From Alphaproteobacteria bacterium (GTDB lineage Bacteria > Pseudomonadota > Alphaproteobacteria > UBA828), in contig CAXXVO010000013.1 in the NCBI GenBank assembly GCA_963422645.2, forward strand, positions 1 to 64,000: a DNA stretch of 64,000 bases, written 5' to 3'. The notes under the pieces were generated by a model that was given only the letters and a program-made list of their open reading frames with translations, had not been told where the DNA came from and did no database searches. The first letter of the stretch is position 1. Each line of letters opens with the position of its first letter. Below are positions 6,111 through 12,122 of this stretch, in pieces. The position numbers were made by a program, and so were the translations under genes.

Positions 6111-7624
6111 ATGCTGGTTGTGGAAACGATCGCGAAGATCCGTCGGGATCATCTGGTGAAGGGCGTTCCGATCAAGAAGCTCGCCCGGGATTTGAGGGTT
6201 TCCAAGAACACGATACGCAAGGTGGTGCGGGGCGATGCGACCTCGCACAGCTACGAGCGCAAGATCCAGCCGATGCCGAAGCTTGGGCTGTGGGTGGAGG
6301 AGCTTGAGCGCCAGCTGAAGGCCAACGAGAAGAAGGCACGCAAGGATCGGCTGTCTCTTCTGCGGATTCATGAAGACCTTGTGTCGCTGGGCTACAAGGG
6401 CGGCTATGACGCGGTTCGCCGCTATGCCAGGGCCTGGCGGCGCCGGTGGCGGCTGTTGTCGCCGGCGCAGGCCTATGTGCCGCTGATCTTCGATCCCGGC
6501 GAGGCTACCAGTTCGACTGGAGCCACGAGTACGCGCGTCTGTCGGGCGCGACGACCAGGGTGAAGGCGGCGCACATGCGGCTGTGCCACAGCCGGATGTA
6601 TCTGGTCCAGATCTTTCCCCGCGAGAGCCAGGAGATGGTCTTCGAGGCGCACGAGCGTGCCTTCCGCTTCTTCGGCGGGGTCTGCCGGCGGGGCATCTAC
6701 GACAACATGAAGACGGCGGTGAGCACGATCTTCGTGGGCAAGAAGCGGGACTACAACCGCCGCTTCCAGGAGCTGTGCTCGCACCATCTGGTGGAGCCTG
6801 TGGCGTGCACGCCAGGGGCTGGCTGGGAGAAGGGGCAGGTCGAGAAGCAGGTGGGTGACCTTCGCGGCCGCCTGTTCGTGCCCATCCCGCGGGGCCGCTC
6901 CTACGCCGAGATCAACGAGTGGCTGATGGATCGGTGCATCGAGGACGCCAAGAAGCATCCGCATCCGACAATCCCGGGCAAGACGGTGTGGCAGGTGTTC
7001 GAGGAGGAGCAGCCCTTCCTGATGGCGTATCGCGGCCCCTTCGACGGCTTCCATGCCAGCGAGGTGTCGGTCTCGAAGACCTGTCTGGTGCGCTTCGACA
7101 ACAACCAGTACAGCGTCGCGGCCCGCGCCGTCGGCCGGCCGGTGGACGTGCGGGCCTATGCCGATCGGATCGTCATCCGCCAGGACGGCGAGACCGTTGC
7201 CGAGCACCCCCGCAGCTTCGGGCGCGGCCGGTTCGTCTACGATCCGTGGCATTACGTGCCGATCCTGACGCGGAAGCCCGGCGCGCTACGCAATGGCGCG
7301 CCCTTCAAGGACTGGCAGTTGCCCAACGCGCTCGGCCGCCTGCGAACCCGGCTCGCGGGCCACGACGACGGCGACCGGCAGTTCGTCAAGGTGCTCGCGG
7401 CGGTGCTGGAGGACGGACTGGAGGCGGTTGAGGCGGCCTGTGCCGAGACGCTCGACTGCGGTGCCTGCAGCGCCGACGTGGTGCTCAACATCCTCGCCCG
7501 GCAGCGCCAGCCGGCACCGCCGGCAATCATCCCGACGCCCGAGGGCCTGCAGCTTCGCCACAAGCCGGTAGCCGACTGTCAGCGCTACGACAGCCTGAGG
7601 GAGGCCGGTCATGGAGCGTCATGA
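6111..7624 (+). pseudogene. istA: IS21 transposase IstA, frameshifted near 6505
   Basis: HTH N-terminus in one frame, YQFDW...YDNMKTAV...EKGQVE in the next; GAGGCTACCAG lacks one base of the GEAYQ coding. Confidence 0.88.
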
Positions 7625-8339
7625 TGTGCTGGAGATGATGACCCAGCTGAAGCTCGCAGGTATGCGCGCCGCTTACGACGACATCCTTGCCGACGGGCTC
7701 AAGCGCCGCCATCCGGTGCAACAGATCATCGGTACGCTGCTGCAGGTCGAGATCGCCGACAAGAGGGCCCGCTCGATCAAGTACCAGATGGCCTCCGCCA
7801 AGCTGCCGACGGTCAAGGAGCTGGCCGACTTCGACTTCGCCGCCTCGCCGGTCAACGAGCCCCTGATCCAGGAGCTCGCCGGCGGCGGCTTCCTCGAGGG
7901 CAAACGCAACATCGTGCTGGTCGGCGGCACCGGTACCGGCAAGACCCATCTCGCCGTCGCCATCGCGCGGTCCTGCATCCGCAAGGGCGCGCGCGGCCGG
8001 TGCTACAACGTCGTCGACCTGGTCAACCTCCTCGAGGCCGAGCTTCGCGCCGGACGCCAGGGCCGCACTGCAGACCAGCTCGTCCGCCGCGACTTCGTCA
8101 TCCTCGACGAGCTCGGCTACCTGCCCTTCGCCCAGGCCGGTGGGCAGCTGCTCTTCCATCTGATGAGCCGGCTCTACGAGCGCACCTCGATCGTCATCAC
8201 CACAAACCTCGCCTTCGGCGAATGGCCATCCGTCTTCGGCGACCCCAAGATGACCACAGCGCTGCTCGATCGCCTCACCCATCATTGCGAGATCATCGAG
8301 ACCGGCAACGAGAGCTGGCGCTTCAAGAACCGCTCCTGA
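7611..8339 (+). CDS. istB: IS21 helper ATPase IstB
   Basis: GGTGTGKT Walker [29 protein letters not shown]. Confidence 0.95.
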
Positions 8340-8644
8340 CCCGCCGCCGGCCTCCCTTGCGGCCCGGTTGCCCCGGTGGGCCAACAGGGACCCCCCACGC
8401 GGCTTCGCTCCGCGTAGCGCAGGGCGCCACACGAAGCCGCGCGGGTCCCCCCTATTGGCTACCGGGACAACCTCCGCCGTGCCACTCAGGGGGGTCAATT
8501 TTGCACGCCGATCGGGGGTCAGTATTGAAAGCCGATTGACAATCAGCAGAGGTCAGGAAGTCTGAGTATAGGCTCTGTACCCATAAAATAATTACCGGAG
8601 AGAGCGAATTTTGATTCAGGCTCCCAAAGTGTGGGAGCCCATCG

Positions 8645-8965
8645 ATGAACCGCTACGACCTGACCGACTTCGAATGGAGCGTGATCGAACCGTTGCTGCC
8701 GAACAAGCCGCGCGGGGTCCCTCGTGTGGACGACCGGCGCGTGCTCAACGGCATCATGTGGGTGCTGCGCTCCGGCGCCCCCTGGCGAGACCTGCCGGAG
8801 CGCTACGGGCCCGACACCACCTGTTACAACCGCTTCAATCGCTGGCGCAAGAAGGGCATCCGGGATCGCCTTATGGACGCTATCGTCGAGGCTTGCGACG
8901 GCGACATACAGATGATCGGCAGTTCTAGCGTCCGGGTTCACCAGCACGCAGCGGGTTCAAAAAGA
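8645..8965 (+). pseudogene. IS5 transposase OrfA (DUF4096-type), cut by IS110
   Basis: RYDLTDFEW...VLNGIMWVLRSGAPWRDLPERYG...YNRFNRW. Confidence 0.9.
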
Positions 8966-9079
8966 TGGGGTATTCGGGTTGGCTTTTGAGCCTGCCACCT
9001 GAGGTGGCTGCTCCTCCGGCCTTATCGTTGAAAAGAGGTCCTCACGAGTCGGCCTCAGCCAGAAGGAGGAGGAGCAGCC

Positions 9080-10123
9080 ATGAAGCATTTTGCCGGACTC
9101 GACGTCTCGTTGGAATGGACAAGCCTGTGCGTAGTAGACGAAGTCGGGCAGATTGTCCGGGAAGCGAAAGTCCTGAGCGAACCCGATGCGCTGGTAGCGT
9201 TCTTCGCCGAGTTGGACGTTCGGGTGACGCGTATCTGTCTCGAGGCGGGCCCGCTGTCGCAGTGGCTTCATGACGGCCTCGCTGAGGCCGGCTTGCCGGT
9301 GGTGTGCGCGGAGACCCGCCAGCTGAAGGCCGTGCTGTCGGCGACAGTGAACAAGAGCGACCGCAGCGATGCGCGCGGGATCGCGCAGATGCTGAGGGTG
9401 AACATGATTCGGCCGGTCCACGTGAAGACGGTGTCGAGTCAGGAAAAGCGAATGCTGCTGACGAACCGCAAGTTCATGCTGAAGCAACTGTGCGACGCCG
9501 AGTCCCACATCCGCGGCACGCTACGCAACTTCGGGTTGAAGGTCGGCCAGGTCAGCCGTGGTCGGTTCGAGACGCGAATCCGCGAACTGGTCGAGGATCG
9601 GGCGGCGCTGACATGTCTGGTGCAGCCGCTGCTGCGTGCACGGGCAGAACTGCTGACAGCCTTCAACGAGCTGCACAGCATGATGCTTCATCAGGTGCGG
9701 GCCGATCCGGTCTGCCGCCGTTTGATGACAATCCCTGGTGTCGGTCCGGTGACGGCGTTGACCTTCCGGGCCACCGTCGATGTTCCGGCGCGCTTCGGCC
9801 GTTCTCGCTCGGTAGGTGCCCACTTCGGTCTGACGCCACGCAAATGGCAATCCGGGGAGATCGATCACATGGGTCGGATCTCCAAATGCGGCGATGCGAT
9901 GATGCGAACGGCACTCTACGACGCCGCCCACAGTATGCTCACACGAACGACGCGGTGGTCGTGGTTGAAGGCGTGGGCCATGCAAGTGGCAAAACGCCGT
10001 GGCCAGGAGCGGGCGAAGATTGCGCTCGCTCGCCGCCTCGGCGTGATCATGCACCGCATGTGGATGGATGGCAGCGAGTTCCGGTGGAACCGCGGCAGCG
10101 CAGACGCTGCGGCCGCCGCCTGA
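9080..10123 (+). CDS. IS110 family DEDD transposase/recombinase (intact)
   Basis: AGLDVS, CLEAG, NKSDRSDARGIA, IPGVG, FGLTPRKWQSGE (catalytic Ser), GRISKCG, ALARRL. Confidence 0.96.
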   Translation: MKHFAGLDVSLEWTSLCVVDEVGQIVREAKVLSEPDALVAFFAELDVRVTRICLEAGPLSQWLHDGLAEAGLPVVCAETRQLKAVLSATVNKSDRSDARGIAQMLRVNMIRPVHVKTVSSQEKRMLLTNRKFMLKQLCDAESHIRGTLRNFGLKVGQVSRGRFETRIRELVEDRAALTCLVQPLLRARAELLTAFNELHSMMLHQVRADPVCRRLMTIPGVGPVTALTFRATVDVPARFGRSRSVGAHFGLTPRKWQSGEIDHMGRISKCGDAMMRTALYDAAHSMLTRTTRWSWLKAWAMQVAKRRGQERAKIALARRLGVIMHRMWMDGSEFRWNRGSADAAAAA

Positions 10124-10169
10124 GAGCACACGGTAACGGGAAGGAAAAGTCGAGAGCTTCCGCTCTGGC

Positions 10170-10355
10170 GGAGGATGTCCCCGTGGGGACGAAGGATGAG
10201 GTGAGACCGTGGCCCCCCAAGCCCCAATCCGTCGACGACGGGGTGAGGGCGTCAAAAAGATTGTTCCGCCTCGTCTTCTGATCCCATCTTGTTGACGGCT
10301 TCGGATACAGGGCCGATCACGAAGAGAAGCACGACCCCCACGGTGGGATATCTGC
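10170..10355 (+). ncRNA. Predicted bridge RNA / seekRNA of the IS1111-type element
   Basis: Enclosing stem GATGTCCCCGTGGGG / CCCCACGGTGGGATATC; segments GGCCCCCC and TCAAAAAGA match the target, CCCATCT and AGAGA match the donor junction. Boundaries approximate. Confidence 0.75.
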
Positions 10356-10420
10356 AGCCAAACGCGGTAGAGAGGAGGAAGAGCCGGAGGAGTCCTTGAC
10401 TGAGACAACCCGAATAGAGA

Positions 10421-10890
10421 AGGGGGGTCCGGATCGTTGCATGGGTCGTTCCCGAGGCGGACTGACGACGAAGGTGGTCATCGTGCGTTCCGCGCGCGTT
10501 CCGCGCGACGCCAGCGGCTTGCCGCTCCGCTTCACCTTGAGCCCTGGCCAAGCCCATGACAGCACGGCCGCTGAAGCTCTGCTCGAAGATCAACTTCCTG
10601 CAGACAGCTTCCTCCTCGGCGACAAGGCCTACGACGCCGAATGGATCAGAACGATGATCGAGGCGCAGGACGCCGTGGCGATCATTCCCGACCGCAGCAA
10701 CGCCAAGGCTGCCCATGCCTTCAGTCACGTTCTCCACCGCCTGCGGAATCGGGTCGAGCGCTTCTTCAACAAACTCAAACAGTTCAGGTGCACCGCAACA
10801 CGCTACGAAAAGCTCGCCGCAAACTACCTAGCGATGATCAAACTCGCCACAATCCGCATCTGGTTGCGCGCTAATGAGTCCACGCCCTAA
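10421..10890 (+). pseudogene. IS5 transposase OrfB (DDE), separated from OrfA
   Basis: MGRSRGGLTTK, LLGDKAYD, RNRVERFFNKLKQFR, ATRYEKLA. Confidence 0.9.
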
Positions 10891-12122
10891 TCCGATGACG
10901 GAGGGGACGGCCGCCGCCTTCACCTTGACGCGAACGGGTGACACGGCGGCTGCGCTGAAGGTGGATGTGAGCCTGAGCGAGACCGGTGCGACGGTGGCGG
11001 GCACCGCTCCTGCGACGGCGACCTTCGCCACCGGCTCGAGCACGGCGGAGATGAGCGTCGCGACCGAGGACGACGAGGTTGTTGAAGACGCGAGCACGAT
11101 CACCGCGACGGTTGCAACTGGAACCGGCTACAGCGTGGATGCAACCGCGTCGTCGGCCGAGGTTGTGGTGGTGGACGACGATGCGCCGCCGGTCGTGACG
11201 ACGGTCTCGCCGGTTGAGATTGCGGAGAACGAGACTGCGGTCGTGACGCTGGAGGCGACGGACGACGACACGGCGGCGGCCGATCTGGCCTGGTCGATCC
11301 CGCAAGGAGCGGCGGGGGGTGCGGACGCGTTCGCGTTCGCGCTGACGTCGGCCGGTGAGCTGTCGTTCGCGTCGGCGAAGGATTTCGAGGCGCCGGACGA
11401 CGCGGATCAGGATGGCGCCAACGAGGTGACCGTTCAGGTGAGCGACGGCGCCAACGAGACCCTCGCGGACGTAACGGTGCAGCTTACGGATGTGGACGAC
11501 ATCGCGCCCACAGTGTCGGATGCGAGCGTGGACGGCGACACGTTGACGCTGACTCTCAGCGAGGCGCTTGAAGAGAGCGCCGCGCCTGCCTCGAACGCCT
11601 TCTCCGTATCGGTCGATGATGCGGGACGCGACGTTTCGAGCGTCTCCGTGAGCGGTGACGTGGTGACGTTGACCCTGGCCTCGGCTGTTGTTGCCGGGGA
11701 GACGGTGACGGTCGGGTACACCGTGCCTGCGGGTGCGAACGCGAATCCGATCCGCGATGTGGCGGACAACCAAGCGGCTGGTTTCTCGGGCCAGGCCGTG
11801 ACCAACGACACGCCTGCGCCGGTCAACACGGCGCCTGCGGGTGTTCCGACGATTTCGGGAGCCGCGCAGGTGGGCGAAACGCTGACGGCCTCGGCTTCCG
11901 ATGTCACGGATACCGACGATCTCACGAGGGCGGTGTTCGCCTGGCAGTGGATCGCCAACGACGGCACGTCAGACACGGACATCGCGGACGCGACGGCGGC
12001 GACGCCGAGACGGGTTTCGGACTTGAGTTCGGCGGCGAACTGGCCCTCACCGATCCGGTGCTGGGGTTGTCGGCGGAGATCAGCGGGCACGGCTTGCTCA
12101 CGCATGAAGAGAACACGTTCCG
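10891..12122 (+). pseudogene. Fragment of a giant surface protein (Calx-beta-like, cadherin and SwmB-like repeats) joined by deletion to its C-terminal region
   Basis: EGTAAAFTLTRTG, DDEVVED, DFEAPDDADQD...VSDG (cadherin), TLTLTLSEAL...RDVADN; 5' end cut by IS5, frame break near 12000. Confidence 0.75.

What the first reader, a model, noticed from the sequence alone, without database searches (positions are those of the whole stretch)
8957..10430. IS1111-type IS110 with a readable bridge/seekRNA programmed against the slippery site of an IS5 transposase
Seen: the reconstructed target is GGTTCAAAAAGAAGGGGGGTCC (IS5 orfA/orfB junction) and the donor junction is GAATAGAGATGGGGTATTC. The 3' non-coding region carries, in order, GGCCCCCC (10211-10218, complement of the right target flank with one G:T), TCAAAAAGA (10252-10260, 9/9 identical to the left target plus core), TCCCATCT (10282-10289, complement of donor AGATGGGG) and AGAGA (10323-10327, left donor). 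The target guides sit in an internal loop closed by GAAGGATGAGGTG/CGCCTCGTCTTC. Known: IS110/IS1111 recombinases use such bispecific RNAs, and IS1111 members encode them downstream of the tnp gene. Inference: an intact RNA-guided recombinase with an (A)GA core that targets a conserved motif of another IS family, giving a multi-copy safe harbour while disabling its host element.
Basis: partly seen in the sequence, partly recalled or inferred. Interest (0 to 1): 0.85.

Follow-up and report, generated by a model that had tools for sequence, protein, structure and literature searches.

The report
RNA-guided IS1111 element inside IS5
This is an intact RNA-guided jumping gene of the IS1111 type whose guide RNA aims it at the frameshift spot of another jumping gene (an IS5), a new target for a kind of element that is already known.

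Summary
A 1,458-bp IS1111-family element (body 8965-10420 plus a 2-nt core) splits an IS427-group IS5 transposase where orfA must shift into orfB. It carries an intact DEDD/Ser transposase (9080-10123), perfect 11-bp subterminal inverted repeats, and a 3' non-coding region that folds into a covariation-supported bridge/seekRNA. All four guide segments sit at the stated coordinates. Across 12 related elements with different targets, the two target guides covary with the elements' own flanks (0 of 20,000 permutations as good). The donor guide covaries with the left end.

One correction: the core is most likely AG, not (A)GA. Support comes from eight unoccupied IS5 copies in related genomes, a contig that skips 1,458 nt, unoccupied sites in another genome, and a sister clade that splits resolvase genes at VVWK|LDRL.

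Identical copies sit in two diverged IS5 elements here, and a 98% copy sits in a third in another species. Two metatranscriptomes assembled the non-coding region but not tnp, which is a weak hint of expression.

Verdict: a new member of a known kind with an unusual target. Moderate interest.

The parts
8571..8964 (+). Left part of the host IS427-group IS5 element. The left end TAGGCTCTGTACCC starts at about 8571. orfA starts at 8645.
   Evidence: Pfam DUF4096. NF033580 positions 2-107. Ends compared among the C14, C6 and C16 copies.
8957..8964 (+). Left target (TCAAAA) plus the left copy of the AG core (8963-8964). This is the A AAA AG(G) frameshift window of IS5.
   Evidence: Identical to LTG 10252-10259. 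Unoccupied sites are listed.
8965..10420 (+). Body of the IS1111-family element: 1,456 bp, or 1,458 bp with one core copy.
   Evidence: 100% identical second copy on C16. 98% identical copy in G033. Contig skipping 1,458 nt.
8971..8981 (+). Left subterminal inverted repeat, TATTCGGGTTG.
   Evidence: Perfect 11-bp inverted repeat with 10406-10416. Conserved and compensated in homologs.
9080..10123 (+). tnp, a 347-aa DEDD/Ser RNA-guided transposase. DEDD residues are D8, E55, D94 and D97. The serine motif is GLTPRKWQSG with S258-G259.
   Evidence: Alignment to IS621 chain 8wt6_A.
10125..10345 (+). Bridge/seekRNA region in the 3' non-coding region.
   Evidence: Folds. Covariation on 25 sequences. 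Contigs from RNA libraries spanning 10125-10451.
10181..10188 (+). 5' strand of the outer helix. It pairs with 10336-10343 and encloses both binding loops.
   Evidence: Helix 2: 88% of cells paired, 3 pairs with compensatory changes.
10191..10203 (+). 5' strand of the stem that closes the target-binding loop. It pairs with 10267-10278.
   Evidence: Helix 4: 15 pairs, 9 with changes on both sides, 81% paired.
10211..10218 (+). Right target guide (RTG), GGCCCCCC. It pairs with the top strand G-GGGGGTC (core G plus the right target) with one G:T. A10219 faces the core A as a mismatch.
   Evidence: Register shared with homologs. Covariation. Compensatory change in the G043 relative.
10252..10259 (+). 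Left target guide (LTG), UCAAAAAG. It is identical to the left target plus core, so it pairs with the bottom strand.
10281..10289 (+). Right donor guide (RDG), AUCCCAUCU. It is complementary to AG-ATGGGGT (8963-8971) with one wobble.
   Evidence: 9 pairs. It covaries with the left end in L030, L032, L035 and L040.
10323..10329 (+). Left donor guide (LDG), AGAGAAG. It is identical to the right end plus core (10416-10422).
   Evidence: L032 changes both sequences to AAAGAAG.
10406..10416 (+). Right subterminal inverted repeat, CAACCCGAATA.
10421..10430 (+). Right copy of the AG core (10421-10422) plus the right target GGGGGTCC.
10423..10892 (+). Right part of the host IS5. The orfB frame (DDE domain) runs to 10890.
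   Evidence: Pfam DDE_Tnp_1. NF033580 positions 113-258. Right end located.

Best explanation
An intact, probably recently active IS1111-family insertion sequence of 1,458 bp including one AG core. Its 3' non-coding region encodes a bispecific bridge/seekRNA.

The target-binding loop is an internal loop closed by the stem 10191-10203 / 10267-10278. [quoted passage not shown] The donor-binding segments sit in a multiloop closed by the outer helix 10181-10188 / 10336-10343. They read the element's own joined ends ..TAGAGA-AG-ATGGGGT.. through LDG 10323-10329 and RDG 10281-10289.

The DEDD/Ser transposase (9080-10123) then exchanges strands at the AG core between the excised circle and the target. 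The programmed target is the A AAA AGG GGG stretch where IS427-group IS5 elements must shift from orfA to orfB. Each insertion therefore splits the IS5 transposase.

Shown here: the anatomy, the guide-flank covariation, the RNA structure covariation, the same site occupied in three diverged IS5 copies, and the unoccupied sites. Inferred: that the RNA is made and bound, the circle intermediate, the chemistry (by homology to IS621 and ISEc11), and any selective benefit of using IS5 as a landing site.
For: Protein. NF033542 'IS110 family RNA-guided transposase' scores 238.8 bits over profile positions 1-342 of 343. PF01548 and PF02371 both match. D8/E55/D94/D97 and S258-G259 align with the DEDD and SG residues of IS621. 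The catalytic residues of IS621 are named in a passage of PMC11208158.

Architecture. The subterminal inverted repeats are a perfect 11 bp. There are 114 nt upstream of tnp and about 297 nt downstream.

Guides.
- In 12 representative guide programmes, the mean self score is 12.67 and the non-self score 6.99. None of 20,000 permutations reached the self score. Self is the strict row maximum in 10 of 12.
- The RDG against the left end gives 5 of 20,000 permutations.
- A 13th programme, on a Bradyrhizobium japonicum plasmid, fits by eye.
- The 83%-identical G043 relative changes the guide GGCCCCCC to GGUUCCCCC and the flank GGGGGGTC to GGGGGGAC.

Structure. 76.5% of cells are paired against 41-51% when partners are slid. 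114 cells have changes on both sides against 32-44 in the slid controls. None of 500 shuffles reached the observed values.

AG core.
- Six unoccupied IS5 copies read exactly TCAAAAAGGGGGGTCC, and two more carry one change.
- A contig in run X6 joins 8961 to 10420, skipping 1,458 nt with 3 ambiguous letters.
- In G044, 9 unoccupied sites fit the AG-register motif at up to 3 mismatches (control 1). None fit the GA-register motif.
- The resolvase-splitting clade gives VVWK-LDRL only with an AG core.
- The RTG pairs with the core G in 13 of 16 elements and with the core A in 11 of 16. It pairs with a preceding GA in 1 of 16.

Activity.
- The C14 and C16 copies are 1,457 of 1,457 identical, while their host IS5 halves are 95% and 82% identical.
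- A 98% copy sits at the same position of a third IS5 in G033.
- No unoccupied site within 2 mismatches is left in this genome.

RNA. In two metatranscriptome studies, contigs cover 10179-10427 (no differences) and 10125-10343 / 10314-10451. One is preceded by adapter letters at 10125. Neither run gave a contig on tnp.
Against: - Rfam 15 has no matching family.
- The fold z-score of the whole NCR is only -1.3.
- The right-target complement is not above chance on its own.
- A10219 mismatches the core A.
- With an AG core, the terminal extensions beyond the subterminal repeats are 6 and 4 nt plus the 2-nt core. Siddiquee et al. report 7+3 or 6+3 (PMC11187229, introduction passage).
- LTG matches the occupied left junction 9 of 9 (10 of 10 with the next base) but the empty AG-core site only 8 of 9.
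- No sigma-70-like promoter was found in the linear element.
- No circle-junction read or contig was seen.
- The RNA evidence comes from assembled contigs. Contigs cannot show strand, ends or level, and one contig ends exactly where the C14 and C16 flanks diverge, as an assembly branch would.
- Two exact target sites in G033 are unoccupied although that genome holds the element.
Confidence: 0.85

Rival explanations
1. The core is GA or AGA, the element is 1,455 bp, and it targets only the rarer +3-nt IS5 allele TCAAAAAGA-AGGGGGG. The common allele TCAAAAAGGGGGG is not a target.
For: LTG matches TCAAAAAGA 9 of 9. A +3-nt IS5 allele exists: C6 reads TCAAGAAGAAGGGGGGG. The terminal extensions would then be 6+3 nt, as reported for some IS1111 members (PMC11187229 passage). 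Canonical sites in G033 are unoccupied.
Against: No exact +3 site was seen anywhere. The X6 contig skips 1,458 nt. This register would require an extra Leu in the VVWKLDRL motif of three independent resolvase genes. The RTG does not pair with GA in 15 of 16 elements. LDG AGAGAAG runs through AG.
Confidence: 0.1
2. The copies did not arise by RNA-guided insertion. The IS5::IS1111 composite spread as a unit, either by IS5 transposition in trans or by homologous recombination between IS5 copies. The shared site would then reflect one ancestral event.
For: The 310 nt to the left of the insertion (8650-8960) are about 100% identical between C14 and C16, so recombination among IS5 copies does occur. 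The IS5 copies are mosaics.
Against: The right flanks diverge from the 8th base after the element, and the right half of the host is only 82% identical while the element is 100% identical. The host IS5 in G033 differs again. This rival does not explain the guide-flank covariation among 12 programmes.
Confidence: 0.04
3. The NCR matches are incidental and target choice is made by the protein alone.
For: The right-target complement alone is at chance level. There is no Rfam hit.
Against: Covariation of both target guides and of the donor guide with their DNA partners. Conserved structure with compensatory changes. Experimental precedent in the same family (PMC11187229, PMC11208160).
Confidence: 0.01

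Closest known systems
IS1111-family elements with a 3' seekRNA: ISEc11, ISKpn4, ISPst6, ISPa11 (Siddiquee et al. 2024, PMC11187229)
   Same: DEDD transposase of about 340 aa with the GL-P----SG motif. Subterminal inverted repeats of 11-13 bp. Long NCR downstream of tnp. A guide RNA in which the top-strand complement lies 5' of the bottom-strand match. Natural retargeting among relatives.
   Different: No named IS matched. The best plasmid relatives are about 62% identical and are annotated only as 'IS110 family transposase'. The target is the coding frameshift window of another IS rather than a REP, an attC site or a short linear site. The apparent extensions are 6 and 4 nt plus the AG core.
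IS621 / ISCro4 bridge recombinases (IS110 group; Durrant et al. 2024, PMC11208160; Hiraizumi et al. 2024, PMC11208158)
   Same: A bispecific RNA with LTG/RTG and LDG/RDG, each including the core dinucleotide. DEDD plus Ser composite active site. The C-terminal domain is recognisably homologous (E 3e-12).
   Different: Here the RNA lies in the right end, not the left end. The guide order is reversed. The donor guides lie in a multiloop, as Durrant et al. note for many IS1111 orthologues. The core is AG, not CT. No handshake guides could be recognised.
IS4321 / IS5075 (IS1111 family; Partridge & Hall 2003, seen only as a reference entry in PMC11187229)
   Same: An IS1111-family element that homes to a conserved sequence of another mobile element.
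   Different: [quoted passage not shown] This one targets the inside of a transposase gene at its recoding signal. No sequence comparison was made here.
IS427-group IS5 elements (the host; Dziewit et al. 2012, PMC3281130)
   Same: About 867 bp without the insert. Two overlapping ORFs with a conserved frameshift motif. Only the fusion protein carries the complete DDE motif.
   Different: Here the motif itself is the landing site of a second IS.

Membership tests
IS1111 family (IS110 superfamily) | N-terminal DEDD (RuvC-like) domain | tested here: met
   PF01548 at E 2e-11. NF033542 matches full length. D8, E55, D94 and D97 align with the IS621 DEDD residues, but that local alignment is weak.
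IS1111 family (IS110 superfamily) | C-terminal PF02371 domain with the GL-P----S/TG motif | tested here: met
   PF02371 at E 4.7e-22. GLTPRKWQSG at residues 250-259.
IS1111 family (IS110 superfamily) | Subterminal inverted repeats of about 11-13 bp | tested here: met
   8971-8981 and 10406-10416, 11 of 11. Compensated in homologs, for example L015.
IS1111 family (IS110 superfamily) | The long non-coding region lies downstream of tnp | tested here: met
   About 297 nt downstream against 114 nt upstream.
IS1111 family (IS110 superfamily) | Terminal extensions of 7+3 (or 6+3) bp beyond the subterminal repeats | tested here: inconclusive
   With the AG core the extensions are 6 (ATGGGG) and 4 (GAGA) plus the 2-nt core. 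With the GA register they are 6+3. A circle junction is needed to decide.
IS1111 family (IS110 superfamily) | Insertion at one specific sequence | tested here: met
   Three occupied sites at the identical position of three diverged IS5 copies.
Bridge/seekRNA-guided recombinase | The RNA carries a segment complementary to the top strand and one complementary to the bottom strand of the target, and both covary with the target among relatives | tested here: met
Bridge/seekRNA-guided recombinase | The RNA carries donor guides that match the joined ends of the element | tested here: met
   RDG forms 9 pairs and LDG matches 7 of 7, with covariation in L030, L032, L035 and L040.
Bridge/seekRNA-guided recombinase | Conserved RNA secondary structure that presents the guides in loops | tested here: met
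   No Rfam model matched.
Bridge/seekRNA-guided recombinase | The RNA is expressed, binds the transposase and is required; a circular intermediate forms | not testable with these tools
   Only contigs from RNA libraries over the NCR. No circle junction was seen.
IS5 family, IS427 group (the host element) | About 830-865 bp, with two overlapping ORFs joined by a -1 frameshift | tested here: met
   About 867 bp. NF033580 is split at positions 107|113. Frames in the intact C6 copy. Group description in a passage of PMC3281130. The frameshift itself was not shown.

The most novel reading that the evidence does not exclude
This Alphaproteobacteria-centred IS1111 clade may be made of hyperparasites of other mobile elements. 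Under this reading, their bridge RNAs are repeatedly reprogrammed onto short sequences that other elements cannot easily change, because those sequences carry a second constraint. Three examples were seen: the IS427-group recoding signal (this element), the VVWKLDRL motif of the Resolvase domain in serine recombinases (L023, L024, L025, L027, L029), and probably terminal repeats of other IS elements (L016, L038). Such sites would give a multi-copy, horizontally travelling and fitness-neutral landing pad, and each insertion would inactivate a competitor. The only intact IS5 left in this genome (C6) carries an in-frame +3-nt change exactly at the site. That could be an escape allele or an excision footprint, and so a trace of an arms race between insertion sequences.
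Probability: 0.3. Interest if true: 0.7.

Novelty: new member of a known kind. Interest (0 to 1): 0.5.

Why it matters
It is a clean natural example of how a bridge/seekRNA is programmed. All four guides, the core and the unoccupied target can be read from genomes alone, and relatives supply a series of natural retargeting events. It adds an AG-core system in the multiloop IS1111 architecture, with a 15-bp target, to the small set of described systems, which may be useful for engineering. Biologically, it shows an RNA-guided element homing to the recoding signal inside another transposase gene, with a sister clade homing to a conserved Resolvase-domain motif of resolvase genes. This suggests that constrained sequences of other mobile elements are favoured landing sites. 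The general principle that IS1111 elements target conserved repeats, including parts of other mobile elements, is already known, so the advance is one of degree.

Tried and rejected
- Rfam 15 at E up to 10 over 8500-10900 gave only chance-level hits.
- The RNAalifold consensus recovered only part of the structure. I therefore mapped the window's MFE structure onto the alignment and counted pairs.
- The exact gapped pattern for unoccupied sites in G044 found nothing. It was replaced by two mismatch-tolerant motifs.
- My first regex for IS5 sites was too strict. It was replaced by BLAST anchoring.
- The sigma-70 promoter scan of the linear element found 0 sites. The circle junction could not be scanned.
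- No handshake guides like those of IS621 could be recognised next to the RTG or RDG.
- The inverted-repeat search for the L038, L031 and L042 targets found no upstream partner. Only L016 had one.
- The plasmid search gave no named IS. The Azospirillum hit has a different NCR followed by an IS5 gene and was not pursued.
- Run X19 holds only relatives below 95% identity. The lack of cover on tnp in X16 and X18 is not evidence of absence.
- The earlier-findings tool was not open.
- Literature searches for an IS110/IS1111 element in an IS5 frameshift site (listings only) showed no such title. They are not exhaustive, and the supplementary target tables of PMC11187229 and PMC11208160 could not be seen.
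Full report
**1. What is there**

Reading 8300-11200 and the ORF list shows a 347-aa ORF at 9080-10123. It lies between two halves of an IS5-type transposase.
- Pfam gives PF01548 (DEDD_Tnp_IS110) and PF02371 for the ORF, DUF4096 for the upstream fragment and DDE_Tnp_1 for the downstream one.
- NCBIfam calls the ORF an 'IS110 family RNA-guided transposase' (NF033542, 238.8 bits, cutoff 140, profile positions 1-342 of 343).
- NCBIfam places the two IS5 fragments on positions 2-107 and 113-258 of one model, NF033580. The insertion therefore sits within a few residues of the point where the two IS5 frames must be joined.
- The element has a perfect 11-bp subterminal inverted repeat (8971-8981 and 10406-10416), 114 nt before tnp and about 297 nt after it.

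**2. Is it more than chance?**

On this element alone the answer is only partly yes. I compared it with 3,000 first-order Markov random NCRs.
- A 9-nt identity to the left flank was reached in 6 of 3,000.
- The donor complement was reached in 180 of 3,000.
- A complement to the G-rich right flank as good as GGCCCCCC was reached in 1,587 of 3,000.

The decisive evidence is comparative.
- The search for related loci returned 56 loci. Of these, 38 held a near-full-length transposase, and 35 of those had at least 200 nt downstream and were aligned with the window.
- Both ends could be placed by alignment in 24 of the 36 sequences. Dropped were L017, L020, L021, L022, L026, L028, L030, L035, L039, L040, L043 and L046.
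- The 24 sequences hold 15 distinct guide pairs. I collapsed these to 12 representatives by merging near-identical programmes.
- Each guide pair fits its own flanks far better than the flanks of the others. The mean self score is 12.67 and the non-self score 6.99. None of 20,000 permutations reached the self score. Self is the strict best in 10 of 12 rows. Some programmes are related, so this overstates independence somewhat.
- A closer relative in G043 (83% nt identity, truncated) shows a textbook compensatory change. The guide GGCCCCCC becomes GGUUCCCCC and the flank GGGGGGTC becomes GGGGGGAC.
- A Bradyrhizobium japonicum plasmid relative gives a 13th consistent programme.
- The donor guide covaries with variant left ends in L030, L032, L035 and L040 (5 of 20,000 permutations).

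**3. RNA structure**

I mapped that structure onto an alignment of 25 distinct sequences.
- 76.5% of cells are paired, against 41-51% when partners are slid by 1-3 columns.
- 114 cells have changes on both sides, against 32-44 in the slid controls.
- None of 500 shuffles reached the observed pairing or covariation score.
- The outer helix (10181-10188 / 10336-10343), the target-loop stem and the inner hairpin all carry compensatory changes.

The donor guides lie in the multiloop closed by the outer helix. Durrant et al. describe this arrangement for many IS1111 orthologues (PMC11208160, passage in 'Diverse IS110s encode bridge RNAs'). The guide order, with the top-strand complement first, is the one Siddiquee et al. 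report for IS1111 seekRNAs (PMC11187229, section 9). Rfam has no matching family.

**4. The core and the true target**

The occupied junctions read ..TCAAAAAGA|TGGGG.. and ..TAGAGA|AGGGGGG... They can be explained in two ways. The second is an AG core with a target 3 nt shorter. Six lines of evidence favour AG.
- **(a) Unoccupied IS5 copies.** Of 16 IS5-related loci in the family, 3 are occupied. Six unoccupied copies read exactly CTCAAAAAGGGGGGTCC (G033 twice, G029, G040, G036 twice). Two in G043 differ by one base. One (C6) has a +3-nt variant, one is divergent, and three lack the site.
- **(b) A skipping contig.** A contig in run X6 joins 8961 to 10420, skipping 1,458 nt with 3 ambiguous letters.
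- **(c) Another genome.** In G044, which holds seven copies of a relative, the AG-register empty-site motif occurs 9 times at up to 3 mismatches (two at 1 mismatch; control 1). The GA-register motif occurs 0 times. That pattern is 3 nt longer, so the test is somewhat stricter for it.
- **(d) The resolvase clade.** Elements L023, L025 and L027 split Resolvase-domain genes between profile positions 71 and 72. Only the AG register restores VVWK-LDRL. The GA register gives WKLLDRL, and the two intact homologs among the loci read WKLDRL.
- **(e) The RTG register.** The RTG pairs contiguously with the core G in 13 of 16 elements and with the core A in 11 of 16. It pairs with a preceding GA in 1 of 16.
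- **(f) All four guides include the core.** With AG, the guides are LTG ..AAAAAG, RTG ..C(A), RDG CCCAU-CU and LDG AGAGA-AG. All four then include the core, which is the rule described for IS621 (PMC11208160 passage).

Three points count against AG.
- LTG matches the occupied junction one base further than it matches the empty site.
- The 6+4 extensions do not fit the published 7+3 or 6+3 (PMC11187229 passage).
- A10219 mismatches the core A.

I put AG at about 0.85-0.9.

**5. The target in IS5**

In the intact C6 copy, the orfB frame is open from 19 codons upstream of the site, and orfA stops 14 codons downstream. The conserved run ..HQHAAG (frame 0) and KKGGPDRCMGRSRGG (frame -1) must be joined within about 12 nt. 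In the canonical allele this stretch reads TCA AAA AGG GGG in frame 0. The element inserts after A AAA AG. IS427-group elements are described as having two overlapping ORFs and a conserved frameshift motif (PMC3281130, passage). The exact slip site was not shown here.

**6. Copies and activity**

- In G000 the element occurs twice, on C14 and C16, and is identical over 1,457 of 1,457 nt. The host IS5 halves are 95% and 82% identical, and the right flanks differ from the 8th base.
- Among 44 genomes of the family, a full-length copy occurs elsewhere only in G033. It is 98% identical and sits at the same position of a third IS5 variant.
- G000 has no unoccupied site within 2 mismatches of the 16-mer. 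Its only intact IS5 (C6) carries TCAAGAAGAAGGGGGGG.
- Two metatranscriptome runs from different studies assembled only the NCR. X16 covers 10179-10427 with no differences. X18 covers 10125-10343, preceded by adapter letters, and 10314-10451. Neither has a contig on tnp. This is a weak hint of an abundant NCR RNA, because contigs cannot show strand, ends or level.

**7. Comparison with what is known, and novelty**

The element meets every testable defining feature of the IS1111 family and of bridge/seekRNA systems, except the extension lengths, which remain inconclusive. The closest plasmid relatives are about 62% identical and unnamed. What is new is the programme:
- a 15-bp target that is the recoding signal of another IS;
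- an AG core;
- a neighbourhood of relatives programmed against resolvase genes, a REP-like palindrome and probably IS ends.

Targeting of other mobile elements by IS1111 members is already known, for example Tn21 inverted repeats and attC sites. I saw those only as citations in PMC11187229. Hence the verdict of a new member of a known kind, at moderate interest.

Noticed in passing
window 6446-8541: An IS21-family element (istA-like ORF 6446-7624, istB-like ORF 7611-8339, end repeats at about 8487-8541) lies directly upstream of the IS5. The region is therefore a nest of three IS families. The assignment was made by eye and not checked by Pfam.
   Followed up: no
window 8376-8450; L064 (G043:C1): A REP-like palindrome, GGGACCCCCC...GGGTCCCCCC. 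Its reverse complement is nearly identical to the right flank of the 83%-identical truncated relative in G043, whose guide (GGUUCCCCC) fits that flank. This looks like a sister programme aimed at the repeat.
   Followed up: partly
G000:C6:332721-332738 (L079, L080): The only intact IS5 copy of this genome has an in-frame +3-nt (AAG) change and an A>G change exactly at the landing site. It could be an escape allele, a triplet slippage, or an excision footprint through the AGA/AGA microhomology at the two junctions.
   Followed up: partly
L023, L024, L025, L027, L029: A clade whose transposase is 57-59% identical is inserted in serine-recombinase genes between VVWK and LDRL. Its guides match that site. 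Pfam Resolvase was confirmed in 3 of the 3 loci tested.
   Followed up: partly
L016, L031, L038, L042: Another clade targets ..TTTTTC-AG-..TTCCCTAG. In L016 an inverted copy lies 1,211 nt upstream. In L038 the left flank is an IS5-like transposase. The target is probably the terminal repeat of another IS.
   Followed up: partly
window 8540-8570; G000:C16, C9, C6: The motif GAGGTCAGGAAGTCTGA abuts the IS5 copies on C14 and C16. It also recurs, reverse-complemented, beside the C9 fragment and the C6 copy. It may be the preferred site of the IS5 or the end of yet another repeat.
   Followed up: no
window 10396-10401: TTGAC(T/A) is conserved about 20 nt from the right end in all homologs. It may be the -35 box of a junction or outward promoter. 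The linear element has no sigma-70-like hit.
   Followed up: partly
G000:C8:627388-629826 and C16:189780-190636 (L003-L005): Three copies of a distant IS110-family element (64% nt identity over the tnp core). Two of them lie 1.6 kb apart on C8.
   Followed up: no
L106 (B. japonicum plasmid NZ_CP126017.1): A relative with 61.6% aa identity lies next to the 5' end of an ISL3 transposase gene. Its guides fit GAGTC-AG-ACCCCAAAG.
   Followed up: partly
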